Counted from the first letter of the stretch, positions 15,187 to 31,083 are shown. The stretch: 32,000 nt of DNA from Deltaproteobacteria bacterium (GCA_021777225.1 JAJYDQ010000037.1:2006-34005), one strand, 5' to 3'. Notes: generated by a model from the sequence alone, not told the origin. Program-made: numbers and translations.

Positions 15187-15216
15187 TTGACATGTCAAGC
15201 AAAATACTGTGATCCT
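15187..15216 (+). promoter_or_regulatory. Candidate promoter TTGACA-N18-GATCCT; the -35 sits in the 12-nt palindrome TTGACATGTCAA, which presents TTGACA on both strands
   Basis: Read directly. The -35 starts 20 nt after the LysR box, as at the first locus. On the minus strand, TTGACA (15198-15193) followed by 18 nt and TATGCT (15174-15169) could drive lysR2. Confidence 0.35.
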
Positions 15217-15341
15217 AACATTCAACATGATCTGACCGTAACCAAGGTTGCGCTTGGCTGTTTTCGGCTTGGCACAACAACACGTGTATGGATCCAAACA
15301 CTCCACGGCCCAACTTAACCCTCAGCAAGGAGGAACCGGAA

Positions 15342-16967: not shown

Positions 16968-16976
16968 GAGGTAAAA

Positions 16977-17237: not shown

Positions 17238-17281
17238 GCAGAGTTTTTGTCCAATCTTCGCAAAGATAAAGGAGCCTCTCC

Positions 17282-18946
17282 ATGCCAGATAAGACTTACG
17301 ACGCGATAGTGGTCGGCGGTGGACATCAGGGAACTATTATAGCTTGTTACCTCCAACACGCCGGCATGAAGACGGTTGTATATGAAAGGCAACACGAATT
17401 GGGAGGCGGGGCCTGTGGTGAGGAATTACCCCTACCCGGCTTCCTTCAGAACCCTTGCGCTCACTGGACCAGATTTTATGGTCATCCGGCATATGATGAT
17501 TTCAAACTCAGGAACCTCGGCCTGTCGTACGTGTTCCCTGACCATAGCGAAGGAATGATTTACGACGACGGTATGCATTTCATGGGCTATACGGCATGGA
17601 AAGTAGTCGATGAAAATACCGGCAGAGCTGAATTTAACGAACTGAACGCTCAAAAGACCATTGATCAGATATCCAGATTTTCCAAGAGAGACGCTGACAC
17701 CGCTTATGACCTTTTGGAAAAGTATAAAAAGAAGTGGAGGGCCGCTTTCCACGAATGGAGATACAATCCTCCAACCCCATGGGGAGTCAATGACGCGTTC
17801 GAACGTTTGATAGGTGACAAAGATGCTCCTATACCACCCGAATATCAGTTTTACACTTCTCAACAGGTGGCGTTTGATCTTTTCGAAAGTGATTACCTTC
17901 GCACTCTGTTCATGCGTTCATGTATGACATCAAGCGGGGTTTTCCCTAACGATGGCATCGGAATTTACAAGATTTTGCATACTCTCGGATTGATTCTTTC
18001 GTGGGAACCCGCTTCCATTGCTATTGGAGGAACCCACGCAATTACTCATGCTCTTCAAAGGGCTTTCAGTTCCATGGGTGGCGAATTTGTCGTAGAAACC
18101 GGCGTAGAAAGGGCCATTATTGAAAACGGCCGTGCTGTAGGAGTGCTGCTCAAAGATGGAAGGGAAATCGCCGCAAGACATGCTGTCGTCAGCGATATGA
18201 ACACTACTCAAACGATTTTGCAACTTATCGGTGAAGAACATGTCCCAGAAAAAATAGCACATAGGGCCAAGAATATACTTAGAGACAGGGCCCAGCTATT
18301 CTGGGGTAATTTTGCGCTTCATGAACTTCCCGAATACACGGTCGCAAAAGACAATCCGGAAATAGGAATGTGCCCTCGACTAAATTGGGGTCCCAAAGAC
18401 GCTGACTATTTCGCTACAAGGCATCAGGCTGAACTCTTTGTGAAAGGCATTCCAAATAAGCTTGTCGCCATCGTAGCGCCGGATAGCATTTGGGATAAGG
18501 GGCGGGCTCCGGAAGGAAAACATACCATCCTGATCGAACAGTTTACCGCCCCCTACAGGTTCTTCAGCGATAGAGAATGGTTGCGCATGAAAAGCGAAAT
18601 CGTTGAGACAATGAGGGAGCAATGGTCATGGTACGCTCCCAATATGACCAAAGACAACGTGATAGCCACCCATATCACCACCCCCATGGATGTTCAGATG
18701 CGAAATCTGAATATGCCTCAAGGGGGTTGGACAGGCGAAGATATGATCGCTTCCCAGATGGGCCGTATGAGACCCTTCCCAGAACTGGCGTTTTACCGAT
18801 TACCGGTTAAAAACTTGTACCTCGCGTCTGCCGCCGCTCACTCGGGTCCTGGAATTGGAAGGGGCAGCGCTTACAACTGCTTCAAGGTCATTGCGGAAGA
18901 CTTCGGTCTCCCTAAAATTTGGGAGCAAAAGGGCAGACCCTATTAG
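17282..18946 (+). CDS. FAD-dependent oxidoreductase, phytoene dehydrogenase/amine oxidase-like (CtmA/CtmB-like), paralog 2
   Basis: YDAIVVGGGHQGTIIACYLQHAGMKTVVYERQHELGGG, with C-terminal SAAAHSGPGIGRGSAYNCFKVI. Colinear with paralog 1 (shared PEGKHT, ITSP/ITTP and VKNLY motifs). AAGGAG SD present. Confidence 0.85.
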   Translation: MPDKTYDAIVVGGGHQGTIIACYLQHAGMKTVVYERQHELGGGACGEELPLPGFLQNPCAHWTRFYGHPAYDDFKLRNLGLSYVFPDHSEGMIYDDGMHFMGYTAWKVVDENTGRAEFNELNAQKTIDQISRFSKRDADTAYDLLEKYKKKWRAAFHEWRYNPPTPWGVNDAFERLIGDKDAPIPPEYQFYTSQQVAFDLFESDYLRTLFMRSCMTSSGVFPNDGIGIYKILHTLGLILSWEPASIAIGGTHAITHALQRAFSSMGGEFVVETGVERAIIENGRAVGVLLKDGREIAARHAVVSDMNTTQTILQLIGEEHVPEKIAHRAKNILRDRAQLFWGNFALHELPEYTVAKDNPEIGMCPRLNWGPKDADYFATRHQAELFVKGIPNKLVAIVAPDSIWDKGRAPEGKHTILIEQFTAPYRFFSDREWLRMKSEIVETMREQWSWYAPNMTKDNVIATHITTPMDVQMRNLNMPQGGWTGEDMIASQMGRMRPFPELAFYRLPVKNLYLASAAAHSGPGIGRGSAYNCFKVIAEDFGLPKIWEQKGRPY

Positions 18947-18958
18947 CGGGAGGAACCC

Positions 18959-19714
18959 ATGGGAAGACTTGATGGCCGAGTGGCTATTGTAACAGGCGCC
19001 GGCAAGGGCTTAGGGCAGGCTTTTTGTGTAAAGTTGGCAGAGGAAGGCGCCGACATAGTAGCTGTTACTAGAGCCGACATACAGGGCCTGAAGCAAACTG
19101 AAAAGATGGTAAGAAATTTAGGGAAACAAGCTCTAATAAGCCAGGTTGATGTCACCAATGAAAACGACACCATCAGGATGGTTGGTGAAACAGTTGATCG
19201 GTTTAGCCGTATAGATATTTTGGTAAACAACGCAGCATACTATTATGGCGTAAAGAGGAAACCATTCACTGAGATAAGTTCTGACGAGTGGGATAAAATG
19301 ATGGCTGTTAATGTAAAGGGTCCGTGGATTTGCACCAAAGCGGTCTTCGAAACTATGAAATCCCAAGGCAAAGGGAAAATAATCAACTTGACATCGGAGG
19401 TTTTCTTCACTGGTTCCCACGGGTTTGTCCATTATGTAACTTCTAAAGGAGGAGTTGTGGGGCTGACGCGAGCTTTGGCCGTAGAGCTTGGCCTTTATGG
19501 AATATGCGTGAACGCTGTAGCCCCAGGATACACGGATACTGAGGCGAGCCGGACAATTGCAGACGTCGGTAAATATGATACCAGTAAAACACCTTTGAAA
19601 AGACTGGAAACTCCGGAGGACCTCGTTGGAGTAGTCGCCTTTCTAGCATCAGATGACAGTAATTTTATAACAGGCCAGACAATCTTGGTCGATGGAGGGA
19701 GGGCTATGCACTAG
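18959..19714 (+). CDS. Classical short-chain dehydrogenase/reductase (SDR)
   Basis: TGAGKGLG cofactor motif, NNAA, and catalytic S...YVTSK (YxxxK). 251 aa. GGGAGGA SD present. Confidence 0.9.
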   Translation: MGRLDGRVAIVTGAGKGLGQAFCVKLAEEGADIVAVTRADIQGLKQTEKMVRNLGKQALISQVDVTNENDTIRMVGETVDRFSRIDILVNNAAYYYGVKRKPFTEISSDEWDKMMAVNVKGPWICTKAVFETMKSQGKGKIINLTSEVFFTGSHGFVHYVTSKGGVVGLTRALAVELGLYGICVNAVAPGYTDTEASRTIADVGKYDTSKTPLKRLETPEDLVGVVAFLASDDSNFITGQTILVDGGRAMH

Positions 19715-19943
19715 TCATGTAATATCACCGACGTCGGAGCTGGTTTATTCTTTTACTTATATTGTTGTTGCATCGAATTTCTTACTGTTTGCGGGGAAAA
19801 CCTAATTTGATTCCCCCTACCCTTTGTACTGAATTGTATTCGTGGATCCCTCCGACGAGTGTCGATAAATATAGCAGGGCCAATCGTCATTTCACAGTGT
19901 TCTATTAACCGTTTCACAATCCTTAAAGGAAGAGAGAGAACCC

Positions 19944-21626
19944 ATGAAAGTTTACGATGTTGTACCTGGCTTGGAATTCGACGCGGAGCGCGATCTGGCT
20001 CAATCCCCAGCATGGTTTTTGGACGCTACCCATTCTGTCCCACCTTGGACCCCAATGTTTGGCTGGTTTTGGATTAATTTTTGTCGTCACGGCATGCAAT
20101 ACGGCGCTGAGAAGTTGTCTCTACCTACTGTCCATGGATGGGATTGGCGTTTCATGAATGGAGGTGGCTATCTGACTCTGCTCTTAGTTAAGAGCGAAGA
20201 AGAAAAACAACGACGAGAAGTGGAGTTTAGAAAGGCCATTCTCCCGTTAATCAAAGATTACGATGGGATTTGGAATGGTTTCGTAAAAGAAGTTCTTGGA
20301 CGTTATAAAAAGCTAAAAGAGTTGGACGTAGATACCGCTTCAAATATCGAACTTCTGGACAACTTCGAGGAGACTATCAATACTTGTAGGCGAATGTGGG
20401 AAATACACATGTATATGATGTACGGGACTTATACCGCCTACATCCTTTTTGAAAATATGTGTCGTGAACTTGTTGGGATAGACGACACATCCCCGTCATT
20501 TCATCGCATAGTGTCCGGTTTCGACAACAAGGTATTTCAGGTTGACCGTCGTCTCTGGGAGTTTTCCAAGATCGCGTCCGACATGGGACTTGAAGACGTC
20601 TTCCTAAAGAATGAAGAAGTTGACATTCGCGAGAAACTAGAAGAATCAGATAGCGGCCACAATTTCCTCAAACAATTTAGAGAGTTCCTTAACGAAGACG
20701 GTTGGCGTATGCAACGAATGTCCGAAATCAACCTGCCCACCTGGGTGGAAGATCCTACCCCGGCTCTTTCGATGGTGAAACAATTTATCCAAAAGGGGGG
20801 GGCATTTAATCTCGACGAAGAGCGAAAGAAAATAAGCGTTGAAAGAATCGAAACAGAGAAAGAAATTCTTGCCAAGGTTCCTTCCGAGCAACGAGCTTGG
20901 TTTGAACCTCTTATGCGTCTCGCTCAAAAAAGCGGTATATTTAGTGAGGAGCATGATCATTATCTTGATTTATACACACATGCGATGATGCGCCGAAGCG
21001 CTCTAGGGATGGGAAGACGCTTCGTAAAGGCTGGCGCAATTGATGATCACGAAGACATCTTTTTTCTTATCCCCGATGAAGTTCGTCGCGCTGGAATCAA
21101 TCCTGGCCAGTTCGATCTCCGTTACATAGTAGACAGGCGACGCTCCGAATGGTTGGAATGGCAAAAAACTCCCAATCCACCGGCTATTTTAGCTGAGGGA
21201 TTCGATTTGGACCAAGCGATGGGCGTCCTGGTCAAATCAAATGACCCTATTGCCCTTAAGGTAGTTGTTGGTTCCATGCCTCAAGTACGGCCTGAACTGA
21301 AGGCCGACCTGTACGGGACGTGCGGATCACCGGGTGTGGCTGAAGGAACGGCAAGGGTTATCGTAACTGAGGATGAATTACACCTTATCAAAGAAGGGGA
21401 CATCCTTGTGGCGGTAAGCACCTCACCGAGCTGGACCCCTGTATTTTCAATGATCAGTGGGGTTGTAGTCGACCGAGGAGCGAGCCTTTCACACGCCGCT
21501 ATTGTCGGCCGGGAATATGGAATTCCGGTCGTTATGAACGTGTTTGAGGGTACCGCCAAGATTCAATCAGGTCAACGCATCAGGGTCGACGCTAACCTGG
21601 GCGCTGTTTACATACTCGACAAGTAA
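19944..21626 (+). CDS. PEP-utilizing enzyme with phospho-histidine swivel domain, second divergent PpsA-like subunit
   Basis: 560 aa. C-terminus GSPGVAEGTARVI...LVAVSTSPSWTP...GASLSHAAIVGREYGIPVV carries the catalytic His. The N-terminal two-thirds are only distantly related to 5455-7287. Confidence 0.8.
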   Translation: MKVYDVVPGLEFDAERDLAQSPAWFLDATHSVPPWTPMFGWFWINFCRHGMQYGAEKLSLPTVHGWDWRFMNGGGYLTLLLVKSEEEKQRREVEFRKAILPLIKDYDGIWNGFVKEVLGRYKKLKELDVDTASNIELLDNFEETINTCRRMWEIHMYMMYGTYTAYILFENMCRELVGIDDTSPSFHRIVSGFDNKVFQVDRRLWEFSKIASDMGLEDVFLKNEEVDIREKLEESDSGHNFLKQFREFLNEDGWRMQRMSEINLPTWVEDPTPALSMVKQFIQKGGAFNLDEERKKISVERIETEKEILAKVPSEQRAWFEPLMRLAQKSGIFSEEHDHYLDLYTHAMMRRSALGMGRRFVKAGAIDDHEDIFFLIPDEVRRAGINPGQFDLRYIVDRRRSEWLEWQKTPNPPAILAEGFDLDQAMGVLVKSNDPIALKVVVGSMPQVRPELKADLYGTCGSPGVAEGTARVIVTEDELHLIKEGDILVAVSTSPSWTPVFSMISGVVVDRGASLSHAAIVGREYGIPVVMNVFEGTAKIQSGQRIRVDANLGAVYILDK

Positions 21627-21714
21627 TCCAAGGCCTGCAGGATCAAAAGTTTAACTATTGATTCGGGTAGTTTTTGTACCCGGACCTGCTCTCTCCGGAA
21701 AGGATCGGATTGAA

Positions 21715-22740
21715 ATGGCCAAGAAATGGATCTACTGGTTCGACGAAATCGGCTCCGATTTTAACGACCTCGTTGGGAAAAAGTGCGCTAACCTTGGAGA
21801 GATGACAAAGCTTGGCATGAAGGTACCTCCAGGCTTTGCCATATCCGTGGATGGTTATGAGCAGTTTATGGAAGAGAGTGGCGCTGCGAAAGAAATTCAA
21901 AGCTACTTCCATGAAAATAGGGCCATGATGTCTCTGGTTGGCAAACAAGTCGAAGCAAGTCGTGAAATACGCCGAATAATTGAGTCAAAGAGCTTGCCTA
22001 AGGAAATGGCCCAAGAACTCCGTCACAGCTACGAGACCCTTTGTCATCAGGTAGGGATTCCTGATCTGGCGGTGGCTGTGCGATCCAGTGGGGCGGTCAG
22101 CATGCCCGGTCAGATGGAGACTTATCTCAATGTGCGAGGCAAAAGCGAACTTGAGAGAAAAGTCACACAGGTTTGGGCCAGCGCATTCACCGCACGTGCA
22201 ATCGCTTTTCGGCTTGAAAAGAATATGGACATAGCAAAAGCCCCGATCGGTGTGGCCGTGCTCAAAATGGTGAACGCTAAATGCGCCGGAGTTGTTCTCA
22301 CTGTTCAACCTACGACGGGAAACTTGAACAAGGTGGTGGTGGAAGGTAACTGGGGACTTGGCGAAAGTGTTGTCAGCGGAGAAATCACACCGGACCAATT
22401 TATTGTTGACAAGGCAAGTGGCTCCTGCGAAACCACCATCAGCCCAAAAAACAAAATGGTTTGTTATGGCCAAGTAGGAACTAGGGTGGCTGAAGTTCCC
22501 AAGCACTTACAGTGTGAGGCATGCTTGGCTCCTGACGAGTTATCTGAAATTGTAAGGATTGCGACAGATGTTGAGAATTATTTCAACCTTCCACAGGACA
22601 TGGAATGGGTCATAGATCAGGACCTCCCTTTTCCTGAAAACATTTACTGGGTGCAGGCCCGTCCCGCCAAATACTCCAAGGTGGAGCAGGATGAGTCAGT
22701 TTACCTGGCGGACCTAATGTCAAGGATCTTCAGAATGTAA
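21715..22740 (+). CDS. PPDK N-terminal (ATP-grasp) domain protein, second PpsB-like subunit
   Basis: VGKKCANLGEM, VPPGFAISV, AVRSSGAVSMPGQMETYLN and DMEWV...WVQARPA. Trimmed from TTG 21658 to ATG 21715. Confidence 0.85.
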   Translation: MAKKWIYWFDEIGSDFNDLVGKKCANLGEMTKLGMKVPPGFAISVDGYEQFMEESGAAKEIQSYFHENRAMMSLVGKQVEASREIRRIIESKSLPKEMAQELRHSYETLCHQVGIPDLAVAVRSSGAVSMPGQMETYLNVRGKSELERKVTQVWASAFTARAIAFRLEKNMDIAKAPIGVAVLKMVNAKCAGVVLTVQPTTGNLNKVVVEGNWGLGESVVSGEITPDQFIVDKASGSCETTISPKNKMVCYGQVGTRVAEVPKHLQCEACLAPDELSEIVRIATDVENYFNLPQDMEWVIDQDLPFPENIYWVQARPAKYSKVEQDESVYLADLMSRIFRM

Positions 22741-22775: not shown

Positions 22776-23435
22776 ATGACCAGCCTATTTACTCAATATT
22801 GGGACGTAATTCCTGGAAGGTTCGATGATTACTCTGCATTCGTGACAAAAGAGTACGTGCCTACAATGGAAAAGCTGGGCCTGAAACTTCTCGGCGGTTT
22901 CTACGTGGCTGTCGGTCAGGGACCCAGGATAATCGTTGTAGGCACGGTAGAGGAACAGGACTATCTACGACGTATCCTGTCTACGGAACAATACAGGATT
23001 GTCATGGAAGGACTTTTCGAATTCACATGTAAATATTCGAGTAAACTTTATGTATCCAGCGGAAGAGTAACTCAAGGGCCATACGCCATTCAAACAGGCG
23101 CATGGAAATTTAACCAGTATTATAACATCATCCCTGGTAAAGAAACTGAGCACTATCATTTTGTTAAGAACGAGTGCATGCCGGGAATGAAAGAGTTGGG
23201 TGTCCCTGTGACAGGGGCGTGGCGCATGGTCATAGGAGAAGGCCCTAGAATTCTTGCGGAATGCACATCCCGTAACATGATGGGCATTGCAGAGTGTATC
23301 GATACTTCGTTGTTTCGAAAACTGGTGCGGCGACTCAAGAAACATTTCGCTACTGATTACAACAGCAGGATACTGGCACCTACAGGGAGGATAGAAATTC
23401 CCTCACTCATGCAAAACATGATGAAAGGCTTTTAG
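22776..23435 (+). CDS. Hypothetical protein with an internal tandem duplication (two ~105-aa ferredoxin-like / dimeric alpha-beta-barrel-type halves)
   Basis: GGAGGAGG SD. The halves align by eye: QYWDVIPG..F..FV.KEYVPTMEKLG...GQGPRI...GRV versus QYYNIIPG..H..FVKNECMPGMKELG...GEGPRI...GRI. Confidence 0.6.
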   Translation: MTSLFTQYWDVIPGRFDDYSAFVTKEYVPTMEKLGLKLLGGFYVAVGQGPRIIVVGTVEEQDYLRRILSTEQYRIVMEGLFEFTCKYSSKLYVSSGRVTQGPYAIQTGAWKFNQYYNIIPGKETEHYHFVKNECMPGMKELGVPVTGAWRMVIGEGPRILAECTSRNMMGIAECIDTSLFRKLVRRLKKHFATDYNSRILAPTGRIEIPSLMQNMMKGF

Positions 23436-23455
23436 GGGAACGAAAGGAGTTCAAA

Positions 23456-23776
23456 ATGTACGTCAGAATGACGTTCTTCCGTGTTAAAGAAGGAAAAATG
23501 GATGACCTTCGAAACATCTACAACAAACAGGTCATCTCCGCCCACAAAGGCCATAAAGGGATTCGGTTTGTGCATCTACTTGAGTGCATGGATAGCGTTA
23601 ACGATGGCATTTCCATCACCGCATGGGACACCAAAGCTGACGTTGACGCATACGAAAAAAGCGGTGATTATGAAAAACTTGTTGCAATGTTTAAAGAAAT
23701 GTACGCTGCTGAGCCGATCTTGAAATCTTATGAGATAACGGCCAGTTCCGAGCCAATCCTTCTTCGAATTTTTTAG
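23456..23776 (+). CDS. ABM (antibiotic biosynthesis monooxygenase)-like dimeric alpha-beta-barrel protein
   Basis: 106 aa. The MYVRMTFFRVKEG..D start and ITAWDTKADVDAYEKSGDY pattern are typical of ABM/ferredoxin-like small proteins. AAAGGAG SD present. Confidence 0.55.
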   Translation: MYVRMTFFRVKEGKMDDLRNIYNKQVISAHKGHKGIRFVHLLECMDSVNDGISITAWDTKADVDAYEKSGDYEKLVAMFKEMYAAEPILKSYEITASSEPILLRIF

Positions 23777-23790
23777 GACATTGGAGGAAA

Positions 23791-24372
23791 ATGAAATTCC
23801 TAAATCCACAGACGCGGTTTCAGGAAATACGCGAGATGGCGGAATCATTCCTGGACACACGAAACAATCTAATTCATATGGAGGTTTCAAGCGCGTTCGC
23901 CTTGAGATTGCTGAACTCTGAACCTGGCGATGAGACTGTGGTAATGCCTGCAATAATCCTTCACGACGTAGGATGGAAAATGGTACCCGAAGAATTGCAG
24001 ATTCAAGCTTTCGGGCCAAAAGCCAAAGACATGGAGACTAACAGAATTCATGAGGTTGAGGGAGCGCGAATAGCACGCGAAATTCTGGAAAAGCTCGAAT
24101 ACGAAGCTTCTTTGGTGGACGAGATAGTTGAGATCATTCTCGGACATGATTCCCGTAGAAACCCATTATCTTTTAACGACGCTATTGTAAAAGACGCAGA
24201 TAAACTATGGCGTTTTTCTAAGGAAGCGTTCAAAATCGACCCTGAGCGCTTTGGAATCGATCCCTTGGCGCACATGCATTGGCTTGGCCAACAAATAGAT
24301 GGATGGTTTGTAACAGAAACCGGTAGAAAAGTTGCCCGTGAAGAGCAACGACTCCGGGTCGTAAGTCTTTAA
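23791..24372 (+). CDS. HD-domain metal-dependent phosphohydrolase, paralog 2
   Basis: AIILHDVGWKMVPEELQ, NRIHEVEGARIAREILEK, ILGHDSR and AIVKDADKLWRFS are near-identical blocks shared with 13566-14165. GGAGGA SD present. Confidence 0.8.
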   Translation: MKFLNPQTRFQEIREMAESFLDTRNNLIHMEVSSAFALRLLNSEPGDETVVMPAIILHDVGWKMVPEELQIQAFGPKAKDMETNRIHEVEGARIAREILEKLEYEASLVDEIVEIILGHDSRRNPLSFNDAIVKDADKLWRFSKEAFKIDPERFGIDPLAHMHWLGQQIDGWFVTETGRKVAREEQRLRVVSL

Positions 24373-24397
24373 ACAATCCGTTGATTAGGAAATTGTT

Positions 24398-27058
24398 ATG
24401 AAAAGAGTTCAGCTAACCATTAACGGGGTCCCACACACATTGGACGTTGATTACCAGCTAGTCCTGGTGGATTTATTACGTGACAAACTTTCTCTGACAG
24501 GGACCAAGCAATCTTGCGATAGAAAGGGACAATGCGGTTCTTGCACAGTAATAGTAAACGACAAGGCAGTACATTCCTGTCTTGTAAAGGTAGCTGATCT
24601 TGATGGAGCCGAAGTCATTTCCATAGAGGGACTTGGCACACCAGAAAACCCTCATCTAATCCAGGAAGCTTTTGCGCTTGCTGGAGCAGTTCAGTGCGGT
24701 TTTTGCACACCTGGTATGGTCATGTCTACCAAGGCTCTCCTCGACAAAGCCCCCAATCCCGGAACTGAACAAATCATGAAAGCCCTCAGGGGGAATTTGT
24801 GTCGATGTACCGGGTACAAAAAAATAATTGAGGCGGTAGAATTGGCGGCAAGATTCTTGAGAGGAGAAATTTCCCCTGAACAGGTACGACCAAAGGCTTC
24901 AGCCGGCCTAATCGGTATGTCACGCCCTAGACCCCATGCCTTGACGCTGGCTTGCGGTACCGCAAAATTTTCTGCGGACATCCGGATGGATGGCATGCTT
25001 GAATTGGCGGTCGTTCGCAGTCCTCATCAGCACGCTATAATAAAATCCGTTGACACTTCTCATGCCGAGAAGATACCCGGCGTTATTGGGATAATGACAG
25101 CCAGTGACATTAGGGGATCAAATCGGATTAGAGAAGATCAGCCACTGTTGTGTGACAAGAAAATTCACGTCTTGGGTGACGCCATTGCAATAGTAGCGGC
25201 GGAAACCAAGGCACAGGCTTTAGCCGGCGTCGAAGCTGTGAAAATAGAATACGAAACGCTGCCCGCCGTAACGACAACTTCGGAGGCCCTAAAGCCAGAG
25301 TCTCCCAGGGTTCATGATGAATCGCCTAACCTTTGCTATGAACACCCTCAGATTAAAGGAAACGCTGAAGAAGCGCTAAAGCAAGCAGCCGCAACAGTGG
25401 AGAGTAAATTTTCAACTCAACTCATCCATCAGGCGGCTTTGGAGCCGGAAGCGTCAGTGGCCTACCTTGAACCCGCTGAAGAAGGTGAAGATCCAAAACT
25501 TATAGTAATAGGACGCAGCATTTATATCCATTATCATTTGATGGTATTACAGGAAGCCCTAGGCTGGAACAATATGCGTTACGAGCAGGCATTTATTGGC
25601 GGCCAATTTGGAATGAAGATGGACATCACGGCAGAGGGTATTGCGGGGGCTGCAGCTCTTCATTTTAAGCGTCCCGTGCGGTATGTGTGTTCACTAGCGG
25701 AGTCAATGCAAATAACCACGAAGAGACACCCATTCGAAATGAAGACACGTCTCGGGGTCGACGACAAAGGTAAGCTTACGGCATACGCTATAGATTTTAC
25801 AGTCGAAAACGGGGCCTACACGTCTGCGGGTAAATCGGTCCTAAACCGGGCGTTGTATATGCTCAGCGGATCATACGATATTCCGAATGTCCGAGCTAAA
25901 GGTCAGTTGGTTTACACTAATAACGCTTGGGGTGGAGCCGCTAGAGGAGCGGGTCCACCTCAAGTCAACTTTGCTTTGGAGTCGGCCATTGAGCTTTTGG
26001 CCGCCAAAATTGGCATGGATCCTCTGGAATTTCGCCTGTCAAACTCTTTGCAACCAGGCAAATCAATATCTACGGGCCAGATTGTGGAAGAGTGGCCCTA
26101 TCCAGGGTGCCTCCAGGCTCTAAGACCGCACTATCAAAGGGCCCTCAAAGAATCTACCGATCAGAAGAAAGGTAAGATCAGACGAGGTGTTGGAATCGCC
26201 GGAGGAAGTTTTGGCATAGGTAGAGGCGGCCCTGACAGGTCGAATGTGGCCGTGGAAATCGACCCCGACGGAGGACTCACGGTTTACGGGTCCATCGCCG
26301 ACCCAGGGGAAGGGAACGACGCTATGCTTACACAGATAGCTTCTCACCTGACCAATATACCTCCAGAAAAAATTCGTCTGGTCATCCGGGACACGGACAG
26401 GACTCCCGACGCTAGCTCGGCCTCGGGTAGCCGTGTTACATATATGAGCGGCGGGGCTATGGTAAAAGCCATAGAAGCCCTCAAGGCCGGAATGGCAGAA
26501 GTTGGAGCCGCTTCTTACGATGCGCTTGTCGCAGCAGGAAAACCCACCAGGTACCTGGGTTCCAGGATCTCTGAAACCACGTTCCTGGATAATAAAACGG
26601 GTCAGGGCTCACCTTTCGAATCCCGTGTTCATGGCGTTCAAATGGCTGAAGTTGAGGTTGACATTGAGACAGGCGGCGTCAGAATCCTTAAGATAACTGC
26701 TGTTGTTGATCCTGGAACCATCATTAATCCGATGATAGTTGAAGGGCAGATCGAAGGTGGAGTGGATATGGGCGCGGGGATGGCTCTCCGTGAGCATTAC
26801 GTTCATGGTCTGACTACTGATTGGAAAGGAATCAAGTTTCCAACCATGGGGACAGCGTTTGACATTGACGTAATCCTCCTTCAGACACATCGTAAACGAG
26901 GCACACTGGGAGCGGTAGGCGTGGGAGAATTTGTTCTATTACCAACTGCGGCGGCAATAGTTTCCGCTATTCAGAACGCCACAGGAGGGTCCCGCATCTG
27001 TCACCTTCCGGCTACCCCCGAACGAGTCCTTGAATCTTTGAAGCCAGGAGTAAGTTAA
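24398..27058 (+). CDS. Molybdenum hydroxylase of the xanthine oxidase family, single-polypeptide MOP-type aldehyde oxidoreductase (2x[2Fe-2S] plus Moco domains, no FAD domain)
   Basis: 886 aa. N-terminal CDRKGQCGSCTV...C (plant-type 2Fe-2S) and QCGFCTPG...CRCTGY (second 2Fe-2S). Moco-domain motifs GGQFGMK and C-terminal GAVGVGEF, which holds the catalytic Glu. Confidence 0.9.
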   Translation: MKRVQLTINGVPHTLDVDYQLVLVDLLRDKLSLTGTKQSCDRKGQCGSCTVIVNDKAVHSCLVKVADLDGAEVISIEGLGTPENPHLIQEAFALAGAVQCGFCTPGMVMSTKALLDKAPNPGTEQIMKALRGNLCRCTGYKKIIEAVELAARFLRGEISPEQVRPKASAGLIGMSRPRPHALTLACGTAKFSADIRMDGMLELAVVRSPHQHAIIKSVDTSHAEKIPGVIGIMTASDIRGSNRIREDQPLLCDKKIHVLGDAIAIVAAETKAQALAGVEAVKIEYETLPAVTTTSEALKPESPRVHDESPNLCYEHPQIKGNAEEALKQAAATVESKFSTQLIHQAALEPEASVAYLEPAEEGEDPKLIVIGRSIYIHYHLMVLQEALGWNNMRYEQAFIGGQFGMKMDITAEGIAGAAALHFKRPVRYVCSLAESMQITTKRHPFEMKTRLGVDDKGKLTAYAIDFTVENGAYTSAGKSVLNRALYMLSGSYDIPNVRAKGQLVYTNNAWGGAARGAGPPQVNFALESAIELLAAKIGMDPLEFRLSNSLQPGKSISTGQIVEEWPYPGCLQALRPHYQRALKESTDQKKGKIRRGVGIAGGSFGIGRGGPDRSNVAVEIDPDGGLTVYGSIADPGEGNDAMLTQIASHLTNIPPEKIRLVIRDTDRTPDASSASGSRVTYMSGGAMVKAIEALKAGMAEVGAASYDALVAAGKPTRYLGSRISETTFLDNKTGQGSPFESRVHGVQMAEVEVDIETGGVRILKITAVVDPGTIINPMIVEGQIEGGVDMGAGMALREHYVHGLTTDWKGIKFPTMGTAFDIDVILLQTHRKRGTLGAVGVGEFVLLPTAAAIVSAIQNATGGSRICHLPATPERVLESLKPGVS

Positions 27059-27071
27059 GAGGACAGACGCC

Positions 27072-27419
27072 GTGATTAAGGGTGATTGTCCTGAAGTTCC
27101 GGAGCCTGATATCGACGATCAGAAGGGTCCGAATTCGTTGTTTGACGAAGAGGGATTCCTTAACAATCCTGAATCGTGGAACGAAACCATTGCGAAGAAA
27201 ATAGCTCAGGGGCAAGGTTTACCTGAGCTAAATGATTCTCACTGGCAAGTCATACGTTTCCTCAGAAATTACTACCTGACAATGGGTAAGGCTCCGTTGA
27301 ACAGCGAGTTAAAAAAGGGCGTAGGTTTGAACATGACGCAGATCGAGAAGATGTTTCCCACCGGCATCAGGCTTGGAGCGCGACGCATAGCAGGGTTGCC
27401 GAATCCAAAAAACTGTTGA
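27072..27419 (+). CDS. TusE/DsrC-family sulfur-carrier protein (single C-terminal Cys)
   Basis: 115 aa. FDEEGFL..PESW.E.IA, HWQVIRFLRNYY and a C-terminal arm AGLPNPKNC ending in Cys. The second conserved Cys of true DsrC, about 10 residues upstream, is absent. GTG start with AAGAGGA upstream. Confidence 0.8.
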   Translation: MIKGDCPEVPEPDIDDQKGPNSLFDEEGFLNNPESWNETIAKKIAQGQGLPELNDSHWQVIRFLRNYYLTMGKAPLNSELKKGVGLNMTQIEKMFPTGIRLGARRIAGLPNPKNC

Positions 27420-27423
27420 ATTT

Positions 27424-28575
27424 ATGTATCCGGAAACGATTTATTTAGATAACGCCGCTACTAGTTTCCCCAAGCCTCCTGAAGTTATTCACGCCATGTT
27501 GGAGGATTACAAACGCTTCGGGGTATCGCCGGGACGCGGTAGCTACGACCTGGCGGTTAGGGCGGAAGAACTGGTGAACGGTATAAGGCGCCAGGTTACA
27601 GATTTTTTTTCTGGGTACGATCCCAATAGGGTCATATTTTCGTACAACGCCACAGACGCTTTAAACACCCTGATCCTGGGACTGGCTGAACCCGGGATCC
27701 ATGTTATCAGTTCGAGGCTTGAACACAATTCTGTTCTCAGGCCCTTACACCACCTCAGAGAACATGGAATCATTAGTTTGGACCTCGTACCTTTTGATTC
27801 TCAAGGCTTTATTGACCCGGATGATGTCAAGAAGGCCATTAATCCTAAGACCTCTTTGGTAATAATTAATCACGCTTCCAATGTTATGGGGACTATTCAG
27901 CCAGTTCAGGAAATAGGGCGTATTTGCCATGAACAAAGTGTAGCGTTTGCCATTGACGTATCTCAAAGCGCCGGGATCATTCCTGTAGATATGAAATCAT
28001 GGCACGTGGACGCAATAGCGTTTACTGGGCATAAGTCTCTGTTGGGACCCACCGGTATTGGAGGCCTGGCGCTCAGGGATGGCCTGGATATTCCTGCCAG
28101 CCGCTTTGGAGGCACTGGAGTCGATTCCTACAGTCTTTTCCAAACTTCGGACTATCCTTACCGTCTCGAAGCCGGCACGATAAATGTTCTTGGGATTATT
28201 GGCCTTTCGGCGGGGTTAGCGCATATTTCGCAAGTTGGAATTGAGAACATTTACCGTCATGAAATGGATCTTTTGAACAAGTTACGCGACCGTTTGTCAG
28301 CCCTCAAAAGGCTGCGTCTCTATTGCTGTGACAGTTTGATTAATCATCTCCCGCTACTCACGTTAAACATAGAAGGCATGAACCCTGCGGATTTAGGCGC
28401 TATTCTGGACGGCGACTTCAATATCTCGGTTCGCACCGGCCTGCATTGCGCCCCTCTCGTGCACGAGGATTTGGGCACAACGCCCCACGGTAGCGTGAGA
28501 TTCAGCTTGGGACTTTTCAATACCGAAGAGCACATTGTAGCCGTCGAAAAAGCCTTCAAGACAATATTGGAATAA
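27424..28575 (+). CDS. Cysteine desulfurase (class V aminotransferase fold, NifS/CsdA-like)
   Basis: IYLDNAATSFP N-terminus, PLP-lysine motif FTGHKSLLGP, and active-site loop RTGLHCAP. Starts 4 nt after the upstream stop. Confidence 0.85.
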   Translation: MYPETIYLDNAATSFPKPPEVIHAMLEDYKRFGVSPGRGSYDLAVRAEELVNGIRRQVTDFFSGYDPNRVIFSYNATDALNTLILGLAEPGIHVISSRLEHNSVLRPLHHLREHGIISLDLVPFDSQGFIDPDDVKKAINPKTSLVIINHASNVMGTIQPVQEIGRICHEQSVAFAIDVSQSAGIIPVDMKSWHVDAIAFTGHKSLLGPTGIGGLALRDGLDIPASRFGGTGVDSYSLFQTSDYPYRLEAGTINVLGIIGLSAGLAHISQVGIENIYRHEMDLLNKLRDRLSALKRLRLYCCDSLINHLPLLTLNIEGMNPADLGAILDGDFNISVRTGLHCAPLVHEDLGTTPHGSVRFSLGLFNTEEHIVAVEKAFKTILE

Positions 28576-28591
28576 ACATGATGAAAATGAC

Positions 28592-28825
28592 TTATTTCTT
28601 AAGACTCTTTCCCGTTTTTATGTAAAGACTCGCTTCATTATTCAATATGAACGGTTTGGCGACTTCCTGTTCCCAATCATCCTGGGCAACTTCGTCGATA
28701 GAGACAGTGACGGCGTCCATGGGGCATTTGGCTATGTTTACAACGTCCAGGGCAATTTGTTCCGCTAGGCGCATTTTCTGATCTTCCGTTCTTCCAGGAT
28801 ACATTTTCACCATGACGTAGGGCAT
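28592..28825 (-). CDS. 4-oxalocrotonate tautomerase family protein
   Basis: Catalytic Pro-1 (MPYVMVKMYPGRTEDQKMRLAEQI...VTVSIDEV..DDW). GAGGAG SD 8 nt upstream. Confidence 0.75.
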   Translation of the reverse strand: MPYVMVKMYPGRTEDQKMRLAEQIALDVVNIAKCPMDAVTVSIDEVAQDDWEQEVAKPFILNNEASLYIKTGKSLKK

Positions 28826-28864
28826 TTGTTGGCTCCTCTAAGGATAATAGAAATTTAATCCGGG

Positions 28865-29890
28865 TTAGAATATGTTGCCACTCAGCAGGGAGGAGCTGAA
28901 TGGAATAGAAATTTTGCCTCCAAAGATTAGATTGGATCGTTCGTACAAGAAGTCTACGTTAGCGGACGTAATTGTTTCTGGTGGTCCTGCGTCCCTGCGC
29001 TCAAGGTTCATTGTACAGGTCCCGCGATAGGATTCCCAGGTCAAAAACCCCGACAATTCAGAAGCCCCGGAATTCATAAAACCAATCTCACCGGTAGCCT
29101 CAATGAAATAGCCGCTATTGACATTGTTGTTTCCCACATGCGCAAAAGGTACTCCCCTGTTATTACATGTGTTGAAGTGTTCGATCGAACCCAACATAAC
29201 TGGAAAACCAATCAATCTCAGTAACGCCTTGCCAACTCTTGATCTCTGTTCGATCTCAGCGCCTATGAACGGTTGATAACTGGCCACAGACAAGGCTGAT
29301 TCCATGCCCGAAGCCGTAAAATAATAATTGGGATTGGGATCTCCGAAATTGGTAACCAGGGATTCCCACCGAAAACCACCTACCAAATTGAGGCCTGATC
29401 CAGCACAATAATCTATCTCGGCCTGCAAAGCGTAAAGGGAACTCCTGGTCCAATCCCATTCACGAACACCCGGTGGGAATGTGAGCCATGTGATTTCCTG
29501 GTCAGCGTTGGTTTTCATAGCGATGAGATATGATCCACCGAGTTGCACGGACAGATTTTTGGAGACATTGATGGGCTTTTGCGCGGCTAACACTATACCC
29601 TGAAGATTATAGACAAAATATGAAGATACGCACGTGCCCGGCAGTACAAGTCCCGTATAGCCGGCTCTGACCCCATTTCCCGGGCTCATGTATCCTACAT
29701 AAATGGCGGGATCAAACCGCGACGCACCGGCAGATGAGGGAGAGCTTGGAACATGCGGAAAGATCGACACCTGTTCCGAAGTTCTGGTGGTTCCTGCAAA
29801 GCTCAATTCTGCTATGGCTTTTCCTGACCAGCAAATCGCGATCAAAACTAAACAACAAATCGCTATCCCGCTCCGATAATTCACGGCCAT
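28865..29890 (-). CDS. Putative outer-membrane beta-barrel protein (unclassified)
   Basis: Signal peptide with AIA-E cleavage site (MAVNYRSGIAICCLVLIAICWSGKAIA), alternating-polarity strands rich in G/Y/S, and a terminal Phe. Trimmed to ATG 29890, with AAGGGGG 8 nt upstream. Confidence 0.55.
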   Translation of the reverse strand: MAVNYRSGIAICCLVLIAICWSGKAIAELSFAGTTRTSEQVSIFPHVPSSPSSAGASRFDPAIYVGYMSPGNGVRAGYTGLVLPGTCVSSYFVYNLQGIVLAAQKPINVSKNLSVQLGGSYLIAMKTNADQEITWLTFPPGVREWDWTRSSLYALQAEIDYCAGSGLNLVGGFRWESLVTNFGDPNPNYYFTASGMESALSVASYQPFIGAEIEQRSRVGKALLRLIGFPVMLGSIEHFNTCNNRGVPFAHVGNNNVNSGYFIEATGEIGFMNSGASELSGFLTWESYRGTCTMNLERRDAGPPETITSANVDFLYERSNLIFGGKISIPFSSSLLSGNIF

Positions 29891-30049: not shown

Positions 30050-31083
30050 TCACTCATCATCGTCAAAGTCATAAATAGCGCCTTGTGGATTCTTGACCTT
30101 GTCAAACAGACACCCGGAGTTTTGGTTTATACTAGCACTTGTTGCTTAGACGCCGGTCAAAAAACGACGTTGAATGGCCTTCATCAAAAGCGCAGCCTTT
30201 CGTATTTCTCTTATGAATTTTCCCTCAAATGCCTCAGTTTGTCGATGCCCTCGGATGCAATTGTCCAATTATTGGACCCCAAACCGGTTTGAACTACACA
30301 TTTCTCCCTTGCCAAGCGACGGGCCGCTCTCTGAATGAACTTGAACAAGAGCTTTTCCACAGGGGAAAGATCATTGGGATCATCTGTAACAGTGAACAAT
30401 CCGTGTTGCTAAGCCACCTGCGTTATCATTTCATAACTTACAAATTCTGCGGATAATTCGTGCACTGCCTGCAGGATGTCCCTTTCCTGTTCGATTTCTG
30501 CCACCGACCAAAACGAATATCTCTTTTGCTGACAGCAATAGCGTTCTGGTCCCGATTCGATTACCGTTACAAAGCGTCTAATTACTCGTTTGTGGACTTC
30601 TTACCATAAAACAAATTGTGATAGTTGTTTAGCGAAAAAAGTTCTCTAAAGTATTTTCCTGCGGTCTCGTTGTACAATTTTGGTCCCAAGAGAAGGGTCT
30701 GGTTGGTCACGGGCCGAAAAGAGGACTGATAGGCTGCGGCGGCTTCCCTGTAGGATTCATAGAGATCAGCCATGGCCATGGTAGGGGAGGGTTCTGACGC
30801 CATTCGTCTATATTTGTCCTCAATTTCATCCCAGGCTACGCTCTGATTTGACCTGAAATTCCCGTTTTCCCGAAGGTTCAGATTGACTGTTTCAGATTTC
30901 CTTTTTCTAAGATAGGCGTTCATGGATCTGGACTGGCTGGAGAACCTTTCGGACAGGTAAGACCATCTCCCTTGTTCAACGCAGGACACCGGTATAACAG
31001 TTTCAGATTTTGGCGCTACCAGGATCGTTGTGTTTAGCGCCTAACCGGATTTGACTCAAAAAATCGCTTAGTCGAACAGTCAT
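30050..31083 (-). pseudogene. Decayed gene(s) of unknown family: intact SD and ATG followed by frame breaks and an in-frame amber codon
   Basis: AAGGAGG (31095-31089) and ATG 31083 open only a 26-codon ORF. Removing one A from the A4 run at 31008-31011 would fuse it to the 135-aa ORF (30989-30582). A further frame from about 30600 to 30211 is open except for TAG at 30411-30409. A last fragment ends in ...IYDFDDDE at 30050. Confidence 0.3.

What the first reader, a model, noticed from the sequence alone, without database searches (positions are those of the whole stretch)
24398..28575. MOP-type molybdenum enzyme followed by a TusE-like sulfur carrier and a cysteine desulfurase: candidate dedicated Moco-sulfuration relay
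Xanthine-oxidase-family enzymes need a terminal sulfido ligand on Mo. Known installers are the eukaryotic Moco sulfurases with a NifS-like domain, and XdhC working with a NifS-type desulfurase in Rhodobacter. This window has no XdhC-like gene. Instead, the Mo enzyme is followed at 13-nt and 4-nt spacings by a TusE/DsrC-fold protein with a single C-terminal Cys and by a NifS/CsdA-type desulfurase. In E. coli, TusE-type proteins carry persulfide sulfur in the tRNA thiolation relay. Using one to feed a Mo cofactor would be a new role. Delivery of selenium to a labile Se-Mo site is an alternative, but no selD is present here.
Basis: partly seen in the sequence, partly recalled or inferred. Interest (0 to 1): 0.65.

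Follow-up and report, generated by a model that had tools for sequence, protein, structure and literature searches.

The report
Molybdenum enzyme with its own sulfur relay
A distinct clade of anaerobe molybdenum aldehyde-oxidoreductase-type enzymes is almost always encoded with a one-cysteine DsrC/TusE-like carrier and a cysteine desulfurase, which points to an undescribed route, without an XdhC gene nearby, for putting sulfur (or possibly selenium) onto the molybdenum cofactor.

Summary
Three tightly packed same-strand genes encode:
- a MOP-type molybdenum enzyme (24398-27058);
- a DsrC/TusE-family protein with one conserved C-terminal Cys (27072-27419);
- a type II cysteine desulfurase (27424-28575).

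The gaps are 13 and 4 nt. No XdhC, MOSC or SelD gene lies in the window.

- The carrier subfamily (C-terminus GARR[IL]AGLPNPxxC) was found at 186 places in 185,579 species genomes.
- All 79 of the 80 best loci that could be judged have the Mo enzyme directly upstream, and about 70 have the desulfurase directly downstream.
- These loci span at least five phyla and have unrelated flanks.
- The Mo enzymes form their own clade, 36-42% identical to Desulfovibrio gigas AOR.
- D. gigas AOR is reported to need no sulfido ligand, and three loci of its clade lack both relay genes.
- About 78 other fused FeS-Mo enzymes lack the relay genes too.

Best reading: desulfurase, then carrier Cys persulfide, then Mo=S, without a neighbouring XdhC (inferred, about 0.47).

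Main rival: selenium delivery. The desulfurase belongs to TIGR01977, the family of the E. faecalis selenocysteine lyase SclA.

I found no published description. I rate it a new variant of a known kind.

The parts
24398..27058 (+). Clade-B MOP-type molybdenum hydroxylase or aldehyde oxidoreductase. It is a single polypeptide with two [2Fe-2S] domains and a Moco domain, and it has no FAD domain.
   Evidence: Pfam finds Fer2, Fer2_2, Ald_Xan_dh_C, MoCoBD_1 and MoCoBD_2. It aligns over its full length with the D. desulfuricans and D. gigas AOR structures 1DGJ and 1SIJ (580-583 bits), and the catalytic Glu of the GVGE motif is kept. NF045668 scores 780, below the cut-off of 1100. TIGR03311 scores 583, below the cut-off of 830. 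Its clade is 36-42% identical to the DgAOR clade.
27059..27071 (+). A 13-nt intergenic spacer that carries a Shine-Dalgarno-like AAGAGGA before the GTG start.
   Evidence: Read directly from the sequence.
27072..27419 (+). DsrC/TusE-family carrier protein of the single-conserved-cysteine subfamily. The C-terminus is ...GARRIAGLPNPKNC.
   Evidence: PF04358 scores 95 bits and TIGR03342 scores 75 bits. Cys115 is invariant, and the DsrC CysB position is Arg. The structure model has pLDDT 80.2, a helical DsrC-like core and a disordered residues 1-19. Across the 80 loci, the Mo enzyme lies directly upstream in all 79 that can be judged.
27424..28575 (+). PLP-dependent type II cysteine desulfurase or selenocysteine lyase of family TIGR01977.
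   Evidence: Aminotran_5 scores 300 bits. TIGR01977 scores 424, above the cut-off of 377. SclA (NF040779) scores 299, below the cut-off of 525. The PLP lysine K204 is invariant, and the catalytic Cys342 in R-x-G-x-x-C-A-P is conserved in at least 95% of 62 block copies. The best solved relatives are SufS-type desulfurases.

Best explanation
The three genes form a self-contained maturation and repair module for one clade of MOP-type molybdenum enzymes.

Proposed steps, all inferred:
1. The PLP desulfurase takes sulfur from L-cysteine onto its catalytic Cys342 as a persulfide.
2. It passes the sulfur to Cys115 on the flexible C-terminal arm of the DsrC/TusE-like protein. This is the acceptor role that SufE or CsdE plays for other type II desulfurases.
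3. The arm delivers the sulfur to the molybdenum centre of the neighbouring enzyme and installs or renews the terminal Mo=S ligand.

This would replace the XdhC plus NifS route. The arm may reach down the substrate funnel, as the DsrC arm reaches the DsrAB active site.

Shown here: the gene identities, the catalytic residues, and a strict, clade-specific genomic coupling. Not shown here: sulfur transfer, the target of that sulfur, and independence from XdhC at the level of the whole genome.
For: **The block recurs.**
- The carrier subfamily motif GARR[IL]AGLPN matched 190 stretches in 185,579 species genomes, and 186 of them encode a relative.
- In the best 80 loci, 79 have the Mo enzyme directly upstream. 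The other one is cut by a contig end.
- About 70 have the desulfurase directly downstream on the same strand.
- The median gap from the carrier stop to the desulfurase start is 11 nt, and 59 of 72 gaps are 30 nt or less.
- Hosts include Desulfomonilaceae, Syntrophia, Syntrophobacteraceae, Syntrophorhabdus, Desulfobacterales, Bacillota, Chloroflexota, Actinomycetota and Acidobacteriota.

**Nothing else is conserved around it.**
- Only these three gene clusters are widespread (74, 67 and 65 loci). The next cluster occurs in 13 loci.
- Among 101 immediate neighbours, no Pfam family occurs more than 3 times. XdhC, MOSC and SelD are not among the 25 families listed.

**The coupling is specific to one enzyme clade.**
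- The block-linked Mo enzymes form one clade, 53-95% identical within it.
- DgAOR-type enzymes are 36-42% identical to that clade, and three loci of that type lack both genes.
- About 78 other fused FeS-Mo enzymes from metagenomes lack both genes too. Their neighbours are instead FAD subunits (31) and XdhC (4).
- The one evaluable clade-B metagenome locus, L094, has both genes.

**The three genes diverge together.** Spearman correlations of identity to the window copies are 0.50-0.80.

**The chemistry is in place.** The PLP lysine and catalytic Cys of the desulfurase are conserved. A single Cys ends the carrier arm in all 80 loci.

**A fitting contrast.** The clade without the relay is the one reported to need no sulfido ligand (PMC3877041, PMC10223205).
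Against: - There is no biochemical evidence. The target of the sulfur is inferred from gene adjacency alone.
- An XdhC homolog elsewhere in these genomes cannot be excluded.
- Many hosts are sulfide-producing anaerobes, where a dedicated sulfur supply seems least needed. Desulfo xanthine oxidase is reactivated by sulfide plus dithionite (PMC3877041).
- The desulfurase family TIGR01977 is linked to selenium metabolism (PMC2276186).
- In E. coli, TusE does not take sulfur directly from a desulfurase, and deleting tusBCD and tusE does not affect Moco-dependent phenotypes (PMC3831636).
- Two loci (L041, L060) lack the desulfurase next to the carrier, and in one (L074) it is inverted.
Confidence: 0.47

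Rival explanations
1. Selenium relay. The PLP enzyme acts as a selenocysteine lyase. The carrier Cys holds a Cys-S-Se perselenide and delivers selenium to give a labile Mo=Se ligand. Clade B would then be a selenium-dependent molybdenum hydroxylase matured differently from the SelD/YqeB/YqeC system.
For: - The desulfurase and its counterparts in other phyla score above the TIGR01977 cut-off (403-426 against 377).
- That family contains E. faecalis SclA. Haft and Self linked it to selD by phylogenetic profiling and to the selenium-dependent XDH locus. That locus also encodes a sulfur-relay-type carrier with a SirA-like N-terminus, EF_2566 (PMC2276186; bioRxiv 10.1101/2020.02.07.939272).
- Clade-B enzymes score higher on the selenium-dependent XDH model (561-621 bits) than the DgAOR-type enzyme does (452 bits).
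- The hosts are mostly anaerobes of groups described as selenoprotein-rich, and anaerobic conditions have been linked to the Se-cofactor trait (PMC9312934).
- In sulfide-rich cells, a dedicated and discriminating relay makes more sense for scarce selenium than for sulfur (inference).
Against: - No selD, yqeB or yqeC is in the window, and none is a conserved neighbour in the 80 loci.
- The SclA-specific model is not met (299-317 against a cut-off of 525), and neither is the selenium-dependent XDH model (cut-off 830).
- His101, which aligns with the active-site His shared by SufS-type desulfurases and is presumed equivalent to SclA H100, does not discriminate.
- E. coli SufS/CsdB also cleaves selenocysteine in vitro, so family membership does not fix the element (my own knowledge).
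Confidence: 0.25
2. The desulfurase and carrier supply sulfur for a different cofactor of the same enzyme. The candidates are its two [2Fe-2S] clusters or the dithiolene sulfurs of molybdopterin, rather than the terminal Mo ligand.
For: Cysteine desulfurases are the general sulfur source for Fe-S clusters and for molybdopterin. The enzyme has eight invariant cluster cysteines. TusA, another relay protein, affects Moco biosynthesis in E. coli (PMC3831636).
Against: - No Fe-S scaffold gene (IscU, SufU or SufBCD type) and no MoaD/MoeB-type gene is a conserved neighbour.
- DgAOR-type enzymes and other FeS-Mo enzymes carry the same clusters and pterin but lack the relay. The relay therefore tracks something specific to clade B.
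Confidence: 0.08
3. The DsrC-like protein is a permanent subunit, a redox or regulatory partner, or a co-substrate of the Mo enzyme. For example, it could be a persulfide acceptor or donor in the catalytic reaction, or a helix-turn-helix-type regulator. The PLP enzyme would then act in substrate metabolism, for instance as a C-S lyase.
For: DsrC is a physiological partner and co-substrate of DsrAB, and members of the family without the cysteines are considered regulatory (PMC8477390; my own knowledge of the DsrC literature). The tight, probably translationally coupled arrangement suggests near-stoichiometric expression. The block travels between very different metabolic contexts.
Against: With one conserved Cys it cannot cycle as an intramolecular disulfide or trisulfide the way DsrC does. 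The PLP enzyme keeps the catalytic Cys that is specific to persulfide-forming desulfurases. No precedent is known to me.
Confidence: 0.12

Closest known systems
XdhC plus the NifS4 cysteine desulfurase of Rhodobacter capsulatus (also E. coli PaoD/YagQ): Moco sulfuration for xanthine-oxidase-family enzymes
   Same: A cysteine desulfurase provides the sulfur for the terminal Mo=S ligand of an enzyme of the same family, and the accessory genes sit with the enzyme genes (PMC10609526, PMC2997495).
   Different: XdhC is a Moco-binding, Rossmann-type chaperone that holds the cofactor while it is sulfurated. Here no XdhC gene lies in the window or among the block's conserved neighbours. The intermediary is instead a small DsrC/TusE-fold protein with a Cys-bearing arm.
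E. faecalis selenium-dependent molybdenum hydroxylase locus (SclA EF_2568, SelD, the SirA-like carrier EF_2566, YqeB/YqeC, XDH)
   Same: It has a TIGR01977-family PLP lyase, a sulfur-relay-type carrier protein and a single-polypeptide FeS-Mo hydroxylase encoded together (PMC2276186).
   Different: The carrier here is DsrC/TusE-like, not SirA/TusA-like. SelD, YqeB and YqeC are not nearby. The SclA and selenium-dependent XDH models are not met.
FdhD plus IscS: sulfuration of Mo-bisPGD for formate dehydrogenases
   Same: In the same way, a small dedicated protein uses cysteine(s) on a flexible segment to carry sulfur from a desulfurase to a molybdenum cofactor (PMC10609526).
   Different: The fold is different, the Mo enzyme belongs to another family (DMSO reductase), and FdhD also binds the cofactor.
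TusE in the E. coli tRNA 2-thiouridine relay, and DsrC with DsrAB
   Same: It has the same fold family, with a conserved Cys at the end of a C-terminal arm that carries persulfide sulfur to a partner's active site.
   Different: - It is not TusE: NF008562 scores 49.7 against a cut-off of 191.
- It is not DsrC: CysB is Arg, and the motif AGLPKPTG(not N)CA becomes AGLPNPKNC (PMC8477390).
- No TusBCD/DsrEFH or DsrAB genes are conserved neighbours.
- In E. coli, TusE is not needed for Moco-dependent activities (PMC3831636).
Desulfovibrio gigas / D. desulfuricans aldehyde oxidoreductase (MOP, DgAOR)
   Same: It has the same single-polypeptide architecture without FAD, aligns over the full length, and keeps the catalytic Glu.
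   Different: - Identity is only 36-42%, and it forms a separate clade.
- The pocket residues differ: Phe532 and Tyr535 of the DgAOR type are both Ala, and Thr420 is Gln.
- DgAOR-type genes have a different partner set: an HdrD-like Fe-S protein, a methyltransferase, a C_GCAxxG_C_C protein and a radical SAM enzyme. They have no relay genes.
- DgAOR is reported to need no sulfido ligand (PMC3877041).
SufS-SufE and CsdA-CsdE: type II desulfurases with a dedicated one-cysteine acceptor
   Same: It pairs a type II desulfurase (R-x-G-x-H-C-A-type catalytic loop) with a small adjacent protein that bears one conserved Cys.
   Different: The acceptor has a DsrC fold, not a SufE/CsdE fold, and the apparent destination is a Mo enzyme rather than Fe-S assembly.

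Membership tests
Xanthine oxidase family, MOP-type architecture | A single polypeptide with two [2Fe-2S] domains, an a/b hammerhead and two Moco-binding domains, without an FAD domain | tested here: met
   Pfam matches Fer2, Fer2_2, Ald_Xan_dh_C, MoCoBD_1 and MoCoBD_2 and finds no FAD_binding_5. The eight cluster cysteines are invariant in clade B.
Xanthine oxidase family, MOP-type architecture | Catalytic glutamate near the C-terminus (Glu869 of DgAOR, GVGE motif) | tested here: met
   It aligns with the GVGE motif of 1DGJ, and E844 is invariant in 22 clade-B sequences.
DgAOR-type molybdopterin-dependent aldehyde oxidoreductase (NCBIfam NF045668 equivalog) | Score above the curated cut-off of 1100 bits | tested here: not met
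   The window protein scores 780 bits and other clade-B members score 776-797. A Desulfovibrio-type protein scores 1697.
Selenium-dependent molybdenum hydroxylase system | Mo subunit above the TIGR03311 cut-off (830 bits) | tested here: not met
   The window protein scores 583 bits and other clade-B members score 561-621.
Selenium-dependent molybdenum hydroxylase system | SelD, YqeB and YqeC present together in the genome (PMC9312934) | not testable with these tools
   None is in the 32-kb window, and none is a conserved neighbour within 10 kb either side in the 80 loci. Whole genomes could not be read.
DsrC/TusE/RspA family | Match to PF04358 and TIGR03342 above their cut-offs, with a helical DsrC fold | tested here: met
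   PF04358 scores 95 bits (cut-off 24.9) and TIGR03342 scores 75.1 bits (cut-off 53.5). The best solved relatives are DsrC proteins. The AlphaFold model has pLDDT 80.2 and five helices.
DsrC proper | Two C-terminal cysteines (CysB ten residues before CysA) and the motif AGLPKPTG(not N)CA | tested here: not met
   The CysB position is Arg in the whole subfamily, and the C-terminus reads AGLPNPKNC (motif from PMC8477390). There is no dsrAB nearby, whereas the 43%-identical true DsrC P0035 does sit next to dsrAB.
TusE (tRNA 2-thiouridine relay) | NF008562 equivalog score above 191, and association with TusBCD | tested here: not met
   The score is 49.7 bits. No DsrE/TusBCD-like cluster is conserved near the block. 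It shares with TusE only the single conserved Cys on the arm.
Type II cysteine desulfurase / TIGR01977 (EF2568 family) | PLP-binding lysine, a catalytic cysteine in the R-x-G-x-H-C-A-type loop, and a family score above the cut-off | tested here: met
   K204 is invariant and C342 is conserved in at least 95% of 62 copies. TIGR01977 scores 424 bits against a cut-off of 377 and 403-426 in other phyla.
Selenocysteine lyase SclA (NF040779) | Score above the curated cut-off of 525 bits | tested here: not met
   The scores are 299-317 bits.
XdhC-dependent Moco sulfuration | An XdhC/PaoD-type chaperone gene (PF02625 and PF13478) associated with the enzyme genes | tested here: not met
   There is none in the window, and none among the 25 families listed for 101 immediate neighbours of the block. 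By contrast, 4 of 133 neighbours of other fused FeS-Mo enzymes are XdhC. A copy elsewhere in the genome is not excluded.

The most novel reading that the evidence does not exclude
Clade-B enzymes are selenium-dependent molybdenum hydroxylases. They would be matured by a self-contained two-protein relay: a selenocysteine lyase, then a DsrC-like Cys-S-Se arm that is inserted into the enzyme's funnel. This would be a second route to the labile Mo=Se cofactor, independent of the YqeB/YqeC system, and widespread in anaerobes of at least five phyla. A related reading is that the carrier stays bound as a third subunit, so that its Cys persulfide or perselenide is itself part of the active site.
Probability: 0.2. 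Interest if true: 0.85.

Novelty: new variant of a known kind. Interest (0 to 1): 0.66.

Why it matters
How bacterial xanthine-oxidase-family enzymes get their terminal sulfido (or seleno) ligand is understood only for XdhC-type chaperones. Many enzymes have no such partner, and the sulfido status of the MOP/DgAOR type has been disputed for decades.

This module gives that question a concrete and testable candidate. It consists of three adjacent genes. At least two cultured strains carry it: Desulfocicer vacuolatum DSM 3385 and Desulforhopalus singaporensis DSM 12130.

It would also extend the roles of the DsrC/TusE fold beyond tRNA thiolation and dissimilatory sulfur metabolism. In addition, it defines an unnamed clade of Mo enzymes with an altered substrate pocket, which annotation currently lumps with aldehyde oxidoreductases.

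If the element carried is selenium, the module would reveal a second pathway for the labile selenium cofactor.

Tried and rejected
- **Promoter and terminator scan of 23300-29100.** The counts were no higher than in shuffled sequence, so it gave no operon boundaries.
- **Search for gene fusions of the carrier with either partner** (profile search of 1.84 billion representatives).
  - Only tandem multi-DsrC-domain proteins and unrelated N-terminal fusions turned up.
  - The one apparent carrier-desulfurase fusion, P0415, has lost the C-terminal arm and looks like a frameshifted assembly. I did not count it.
- **Sulfur against selenium from sequence.** His101, presumed equivalent to SclA H100, is shared by SufS-type desulfurases, so it does not discriminate.
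- **Metagenome scan from the Mo-enzyme side.**
  - It used generic Fe-S motifs and returned mostly distant enzymes. Only two were clade B, and one of those was truncated.
  - It served as a negative control set rather than as an independent count of clade-B loci.
- **The carrier as a true DsrC of sulfite reduction.** Rejected on the cysteine pattern, the motif and the gene context.
- **The window's upstream aromatic-degradation-like genes as part of the module.** Rejected, because they accompany the block only in the closest relatives (13 of 80 loci or fewer).
- **Literature.** Five searches found no description of this association. The library lacks most subscription journals, so this is not proof that none exists.

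Full report
**1. The observation**

The window holds three same-strand ORFs at exactly the stated coordinates.

- **24398-27058 (886 aa).** It has two [2Fe-2S] domains, the a/b hammerhead and both Moco-binding domains, and no FAD domain. It aligns end to end with the solved aldehyde oxidoreductases of Desulfovibrio desulfuricans and D. gigas (1DGJ and 1SIJ, 580-583 bits). The catalytic Glu of the GVGE motif is kept.
- **27072-27419 (115 aa, GTG start).** It is a DsrC/TusE/DsvC-family protein (PF04358 95 bits, TIGR03342 75 bits).
- **27424-28575 (383 aa).** It is a class V PLP enzyme. Its best curated family is TIGR01977, at 424 bits against a cut-off of 377.

The gaps are 13 nt and 4 nt. The first contains AAGAGGA just before the GTG start.

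None of the real-looking ORFs in the window matches XdhC, MOSC or SelD.

The rest of the window looks like an anaerobic aromatic-carboxylation cluster. It has UbiX, UbiD, two phenylphosphate-synthase-like pairs, a CoA ligase, FAD oxidoreductases and LysR regulators. The closest relatives are Desulfomonilaceae MAGs.

One detail needs correcting. The window's carrier has a second cysteine, Cys6. It lies in a non-conserved N-terminal extension predicted to be disordered. Only Cys115 is conserved.

**2. The carrier is a distinct subfamily**

Homologs at 50% identity or more form a tight group. Its C-terminus reads G-A-R-R-[IL]-A-G-L-P-N-P-x-x-C, followed by 0-2 residues.

- The position of the second DsrC cysteine (CysB) is Arg.
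- The published DsrC motif AGLPKPTG(not N)CA (PMC8477390) is not met.
- The TusE equivalog model is not met either (49.7 bits against a cut-off of 191).
- A 43%-identical relative, P0035, is a true DsrC that sits next to dsrAB. This shows where the subfamily boundary lies.

By sequence the protein is closer to DsrC proteins than to a solved chain deposited only as "Sulfurtransferase" (7SYB), which I take to be a TusE. It resembles TusE only in having one cysteine on the arm. An AlphaFold model (pLDDT 80.2) gives the helical DsrC-type core and a disordered N-terminus.

**3. Co-occurrence**

I scanned one genome for each of 185,579 species for the subfamily motif. The scan matched 190 stretches, and 186 of them encode a relative. 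I analysed the best 80.

- 79 of the 80 have the Mo enzyme immediately upstream. The other one is cut by a contig end.
- About 70 have the desulfurase immediately downstream on the same strand.
- Five more loci end before the desulfurase would appear. Two (L041, L060) lack it, and one (L074) has it inverted.
- The median gap from carrier stop to desulfurase start is 11 nt.
- Hosts span Desulfomonilaceae, Syntrophia, Syntrophobacteraceae, Syntrophorhabdus, Desulfobacterales, Bacillota, Chloroflexota, Actinomycetota and Acidobacteriota. They include the cultured strains Desulfocicer vacuolatum DSM 3385 and Desulforhopalus singaporensis DSM 12130. Several of these groups are not sulfate reducers.

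I then clustered all flanking ORFs. Only the three block genes are widespread (74, 67 and 65 loci). The next cluster occurs in 13 loci and is part of the window's own upstream pathway, seen only in close relatives.

Among 101 immediate neighbours, no Pfam family occurs more than three times. No XdhC, MOSC, SelD or Moco-biosynthesis family is among the 25 families listed.

The identities of the three proteins to the window copies rise and fall together across loci (Spearman 0.50-0.80). This fits inheritance as a unit.

Four independent look-ups through a different index gave the same gene order with unrelated flanks.

**4. The coupling is specific to one enzyme clade**

The block-linked Mo enzymes form one clade, 53-95% identical to each other. 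A paralog in L077 that has no relay of its own also falls in this clade.

Desulfovibrio-type enzymes form a second clade, 70-95% identical within it and 36-42% identical to the first. Only the second clade meets NCBI's aldehyde-oxidoreductase equivalog: 1697 bits against 776-797, with a cut-off of 1100.

- Three Desulfovibrio-type loci have no carrier and no desulfurase.
- They share a different partner set: an HdrD-like Fe-S protein, a methyltransferase, a C_GCAxxG_C_C protein, a radical SAM enzyme and an AMP-binding enzyme.
- The same partner set follows the second, DgAOR-type paralog that lies downstream of the block in L015. DgAOR-type paralogs (70-74% identical to that type) also lie downstream in L023, L025 and L047. 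Some organisms therefore have both types side by side.

A metagenome scan returned about 78 more distant fused FeS-Mo enzymes. None has either gene nearby. Their neighbours are FAD subunits (31 of 133), amidohydrolases (8) and XdhC (4). The only evaluable clade-B locus in that set, L094, has both genes.

Clade B also differs from the DgAOR type in pocket residues. Phe532 and Tyr535 of the DgAOR type are both Ala, and Thr420 is Gln. A different and probably bulkier substrate is likely (inference).

**5. The desulfurase**

- The PLP lysine K204 is invariant across 62 block copies. The catalytic Cys342, in the loop R-x-G-x-x-C-A-P, is conserved in at least 95% of them.
- The best solved relatives are SufS-type type II desulfurases.
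- Copies from Desulfobacterales, Bacillota and Chloroflexota all pass the TIGR01977 cut-off (403-426 bits). All fail the SclA-specific model (307-317 against a cut-off of 525).
- TIGR01977 is the family of E. faecalis EF_2568. Haft and Self linked it to selD by phylogenetic profiling and called it a probable selenocysteine lyase (PMC2276186). It was later characterised as SclA (bioRxiv 10.1101/2020.02.07.939272).

**6. Mechanism**

The most economical reading is a dedicated relay: desulfurase Cys342 persulfide, then carrier Cys115 persulfide, then the terminal ligand of the molybdenum centre of the adjacent enzyme.

The first transfer mirrors SufS-SufE and CsdA-CsdE. The last step mirrors DsrC's arm entering the DsrAB active site, and FdhD's cysteine loop sulfurating the formate dehydrogenase cofactor (PMC10609526).

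Every transfer step is inferred. What is shown is the chemistry-competent residues and the strict, clade-specific linkage.

One independent point fits. DgAOR is reported to be active with an oxo ligand in place of the sulfido ligand (PMC3877041, PMC10223205), and its clade is the one that lacks the relay.

I give the sulfur version about 0.47.

**7. Rivals**

- **Selenium delivery, about 0.25.**
  - For: the desulfurase family's link to selenium; the somewhat higher scores of clade B on the selenium-dependent XDH model; and the argument that sulfide-rich anaerobes hardly need a private sulfur supply.
  - Against: the lack of SelD, YqeB and YqeC nearby, and the failure of the specific models.
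- **Sulfur for the Fe-S clusters or the pterin, about 0.08.** This is unlikely, because enzymes with the same cofactors lack the relay.
- **A structural, catalytic or regulatory role for the carrier, about 0.12.** This cannot be excluded.

**8. Comparison with what is known, and novelty**

Functionally this resembles XdhC plus NifS4, eukaryotic Moco sulfurase, FdhD plus IscS, and the E. faecalis selenium locus. It is not a member of any of them: there is no XdhC, no MOSC domain and no FdhD, and the SclA and selenium-dependent XDH models are not met.

The carrier belongs to the DsrC/TusE family but is neither DsrC nor TusE. In E. coli, deleting tusBCD and tusE leaves Moco-dependent phenotypes intact (PMC3831636). 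A Mo-linked role for this fold would therefore be new.

Five literature searches found no description of the association. The searchable library is incomplete.

I rate it a new variant of a known kind: cofactor sulfuration by a desulfurase plus a carrier, with a new carrier and a newly delimited enzyme clade. The comparative support is solid, and there is no biochemical evidence.

Noticed in passing
L001 677-3910 (same gene as L015 2623-5856): This is a 1077-aa fusion. The N-terminal part (residues 5-700) is a DMSO-reductase-family Mo enzyme, like Fdh-alpha or PhsA. The C-terminal part (residues 753-1061) is a NifS/IscS-type desulfurase domain that matches positions 1-305 of 379 in the NifS model. 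It lies just upstream of the block with one methyltransferase gene between. FDH-like Mo enzymes also sit directly upstream of the block in L021, L023, L025 and L044. It may be a second desulfurase dedicated to a Mo enzyme, or an assembly artefact: L002 calls the gene at 1139 aa, and L003 splits it in two.
   Followed up: partly
L091-L093, and downstream of the second MOP paralog in L001/L015: Desulfovibrio-type (DgAOR-clade) MOP genes have a conserved partner set: an HdrD-like Fer4_20/CCG protein of about 750-900 aa, a SAM methyltransferase, a C_GCAxxG_C_C protein, a radical SAM enzyme with a Zn_ribbon_HMPTM domain, and an AMP-binding enzyme. A MoCF_biosynth gene lies upstream in two of the three loci. 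The HdrD-like protein may be the missing electron acceptor of this FAD-less enzyme.
   Followed up: no
window 4275-22740: Gene sets typical of anaerobic aromatic carboxylation are duplicated here: UbiX (4275-4856), UbiD (8423-9841), two phenylphosphate-synthase-like pairs (5455-8397 and 19944-22740), two UPF0261 proteins, two phytoene-desaturase-like FAD enzymes (15288-16967 and 17282-18946), an SDR, a CoA ligase and two LysR regulators. The second half (FAD enzyme, SDR, Pps-like pair, a 219-aa protein without a Pfam match, ABM, HD) accompanies the block in 5-13 of the 80 related loci.
   Followed up: partly
window 13566-14165 and 23791-24372: Two paralogous HD-domain proteins (199 and 193 aa) are present. 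The second lies directly upstream of the Mo enzyme and is conserved there only in the closest relatives (cluster 13, 5 loci).
   Followed up: no
L077 767-3460, 7224-9929 and 14062-14499: One Chloroflexi contig carries three clade-B Mo enzyme genes (58-74% identical to the window's) but only one carrier-desulfurase pair. One relay may therefore serve several enzymes. Similarly, a Desulfosarcina MAG has two blocks, and one of them (L060) lacks the desulfurase.
   Followed up: partly
proteins P0361, P0364-P0383: Many proteins consist of two to five tandem DsrC-like domains. Most lack the terminal cysteine, and some are fused to an Rrf2-like N-terminal region (P0382, P0383). They are unrelated to the block but unfamiliar to me.
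   Followed up: no
window 30582-30989 (-): This 135-aa ORF matches only positions 98-192 of the 297-position ARPP-1 domain (PF20208). It is probably a gene fragment.
   Followed up: no
L041 1607-3040, L039 11545-12999, L090 12022-13557: An NAD-type aldehyde dehydrogenase (PF00171, E = 4.6e-162 in L041) lies next to the block. The other two ORFs belong to the same cluster, cluster 43. This is a hint that clade-B enzymes act in aldehyde metabolism.
   Followed up: no
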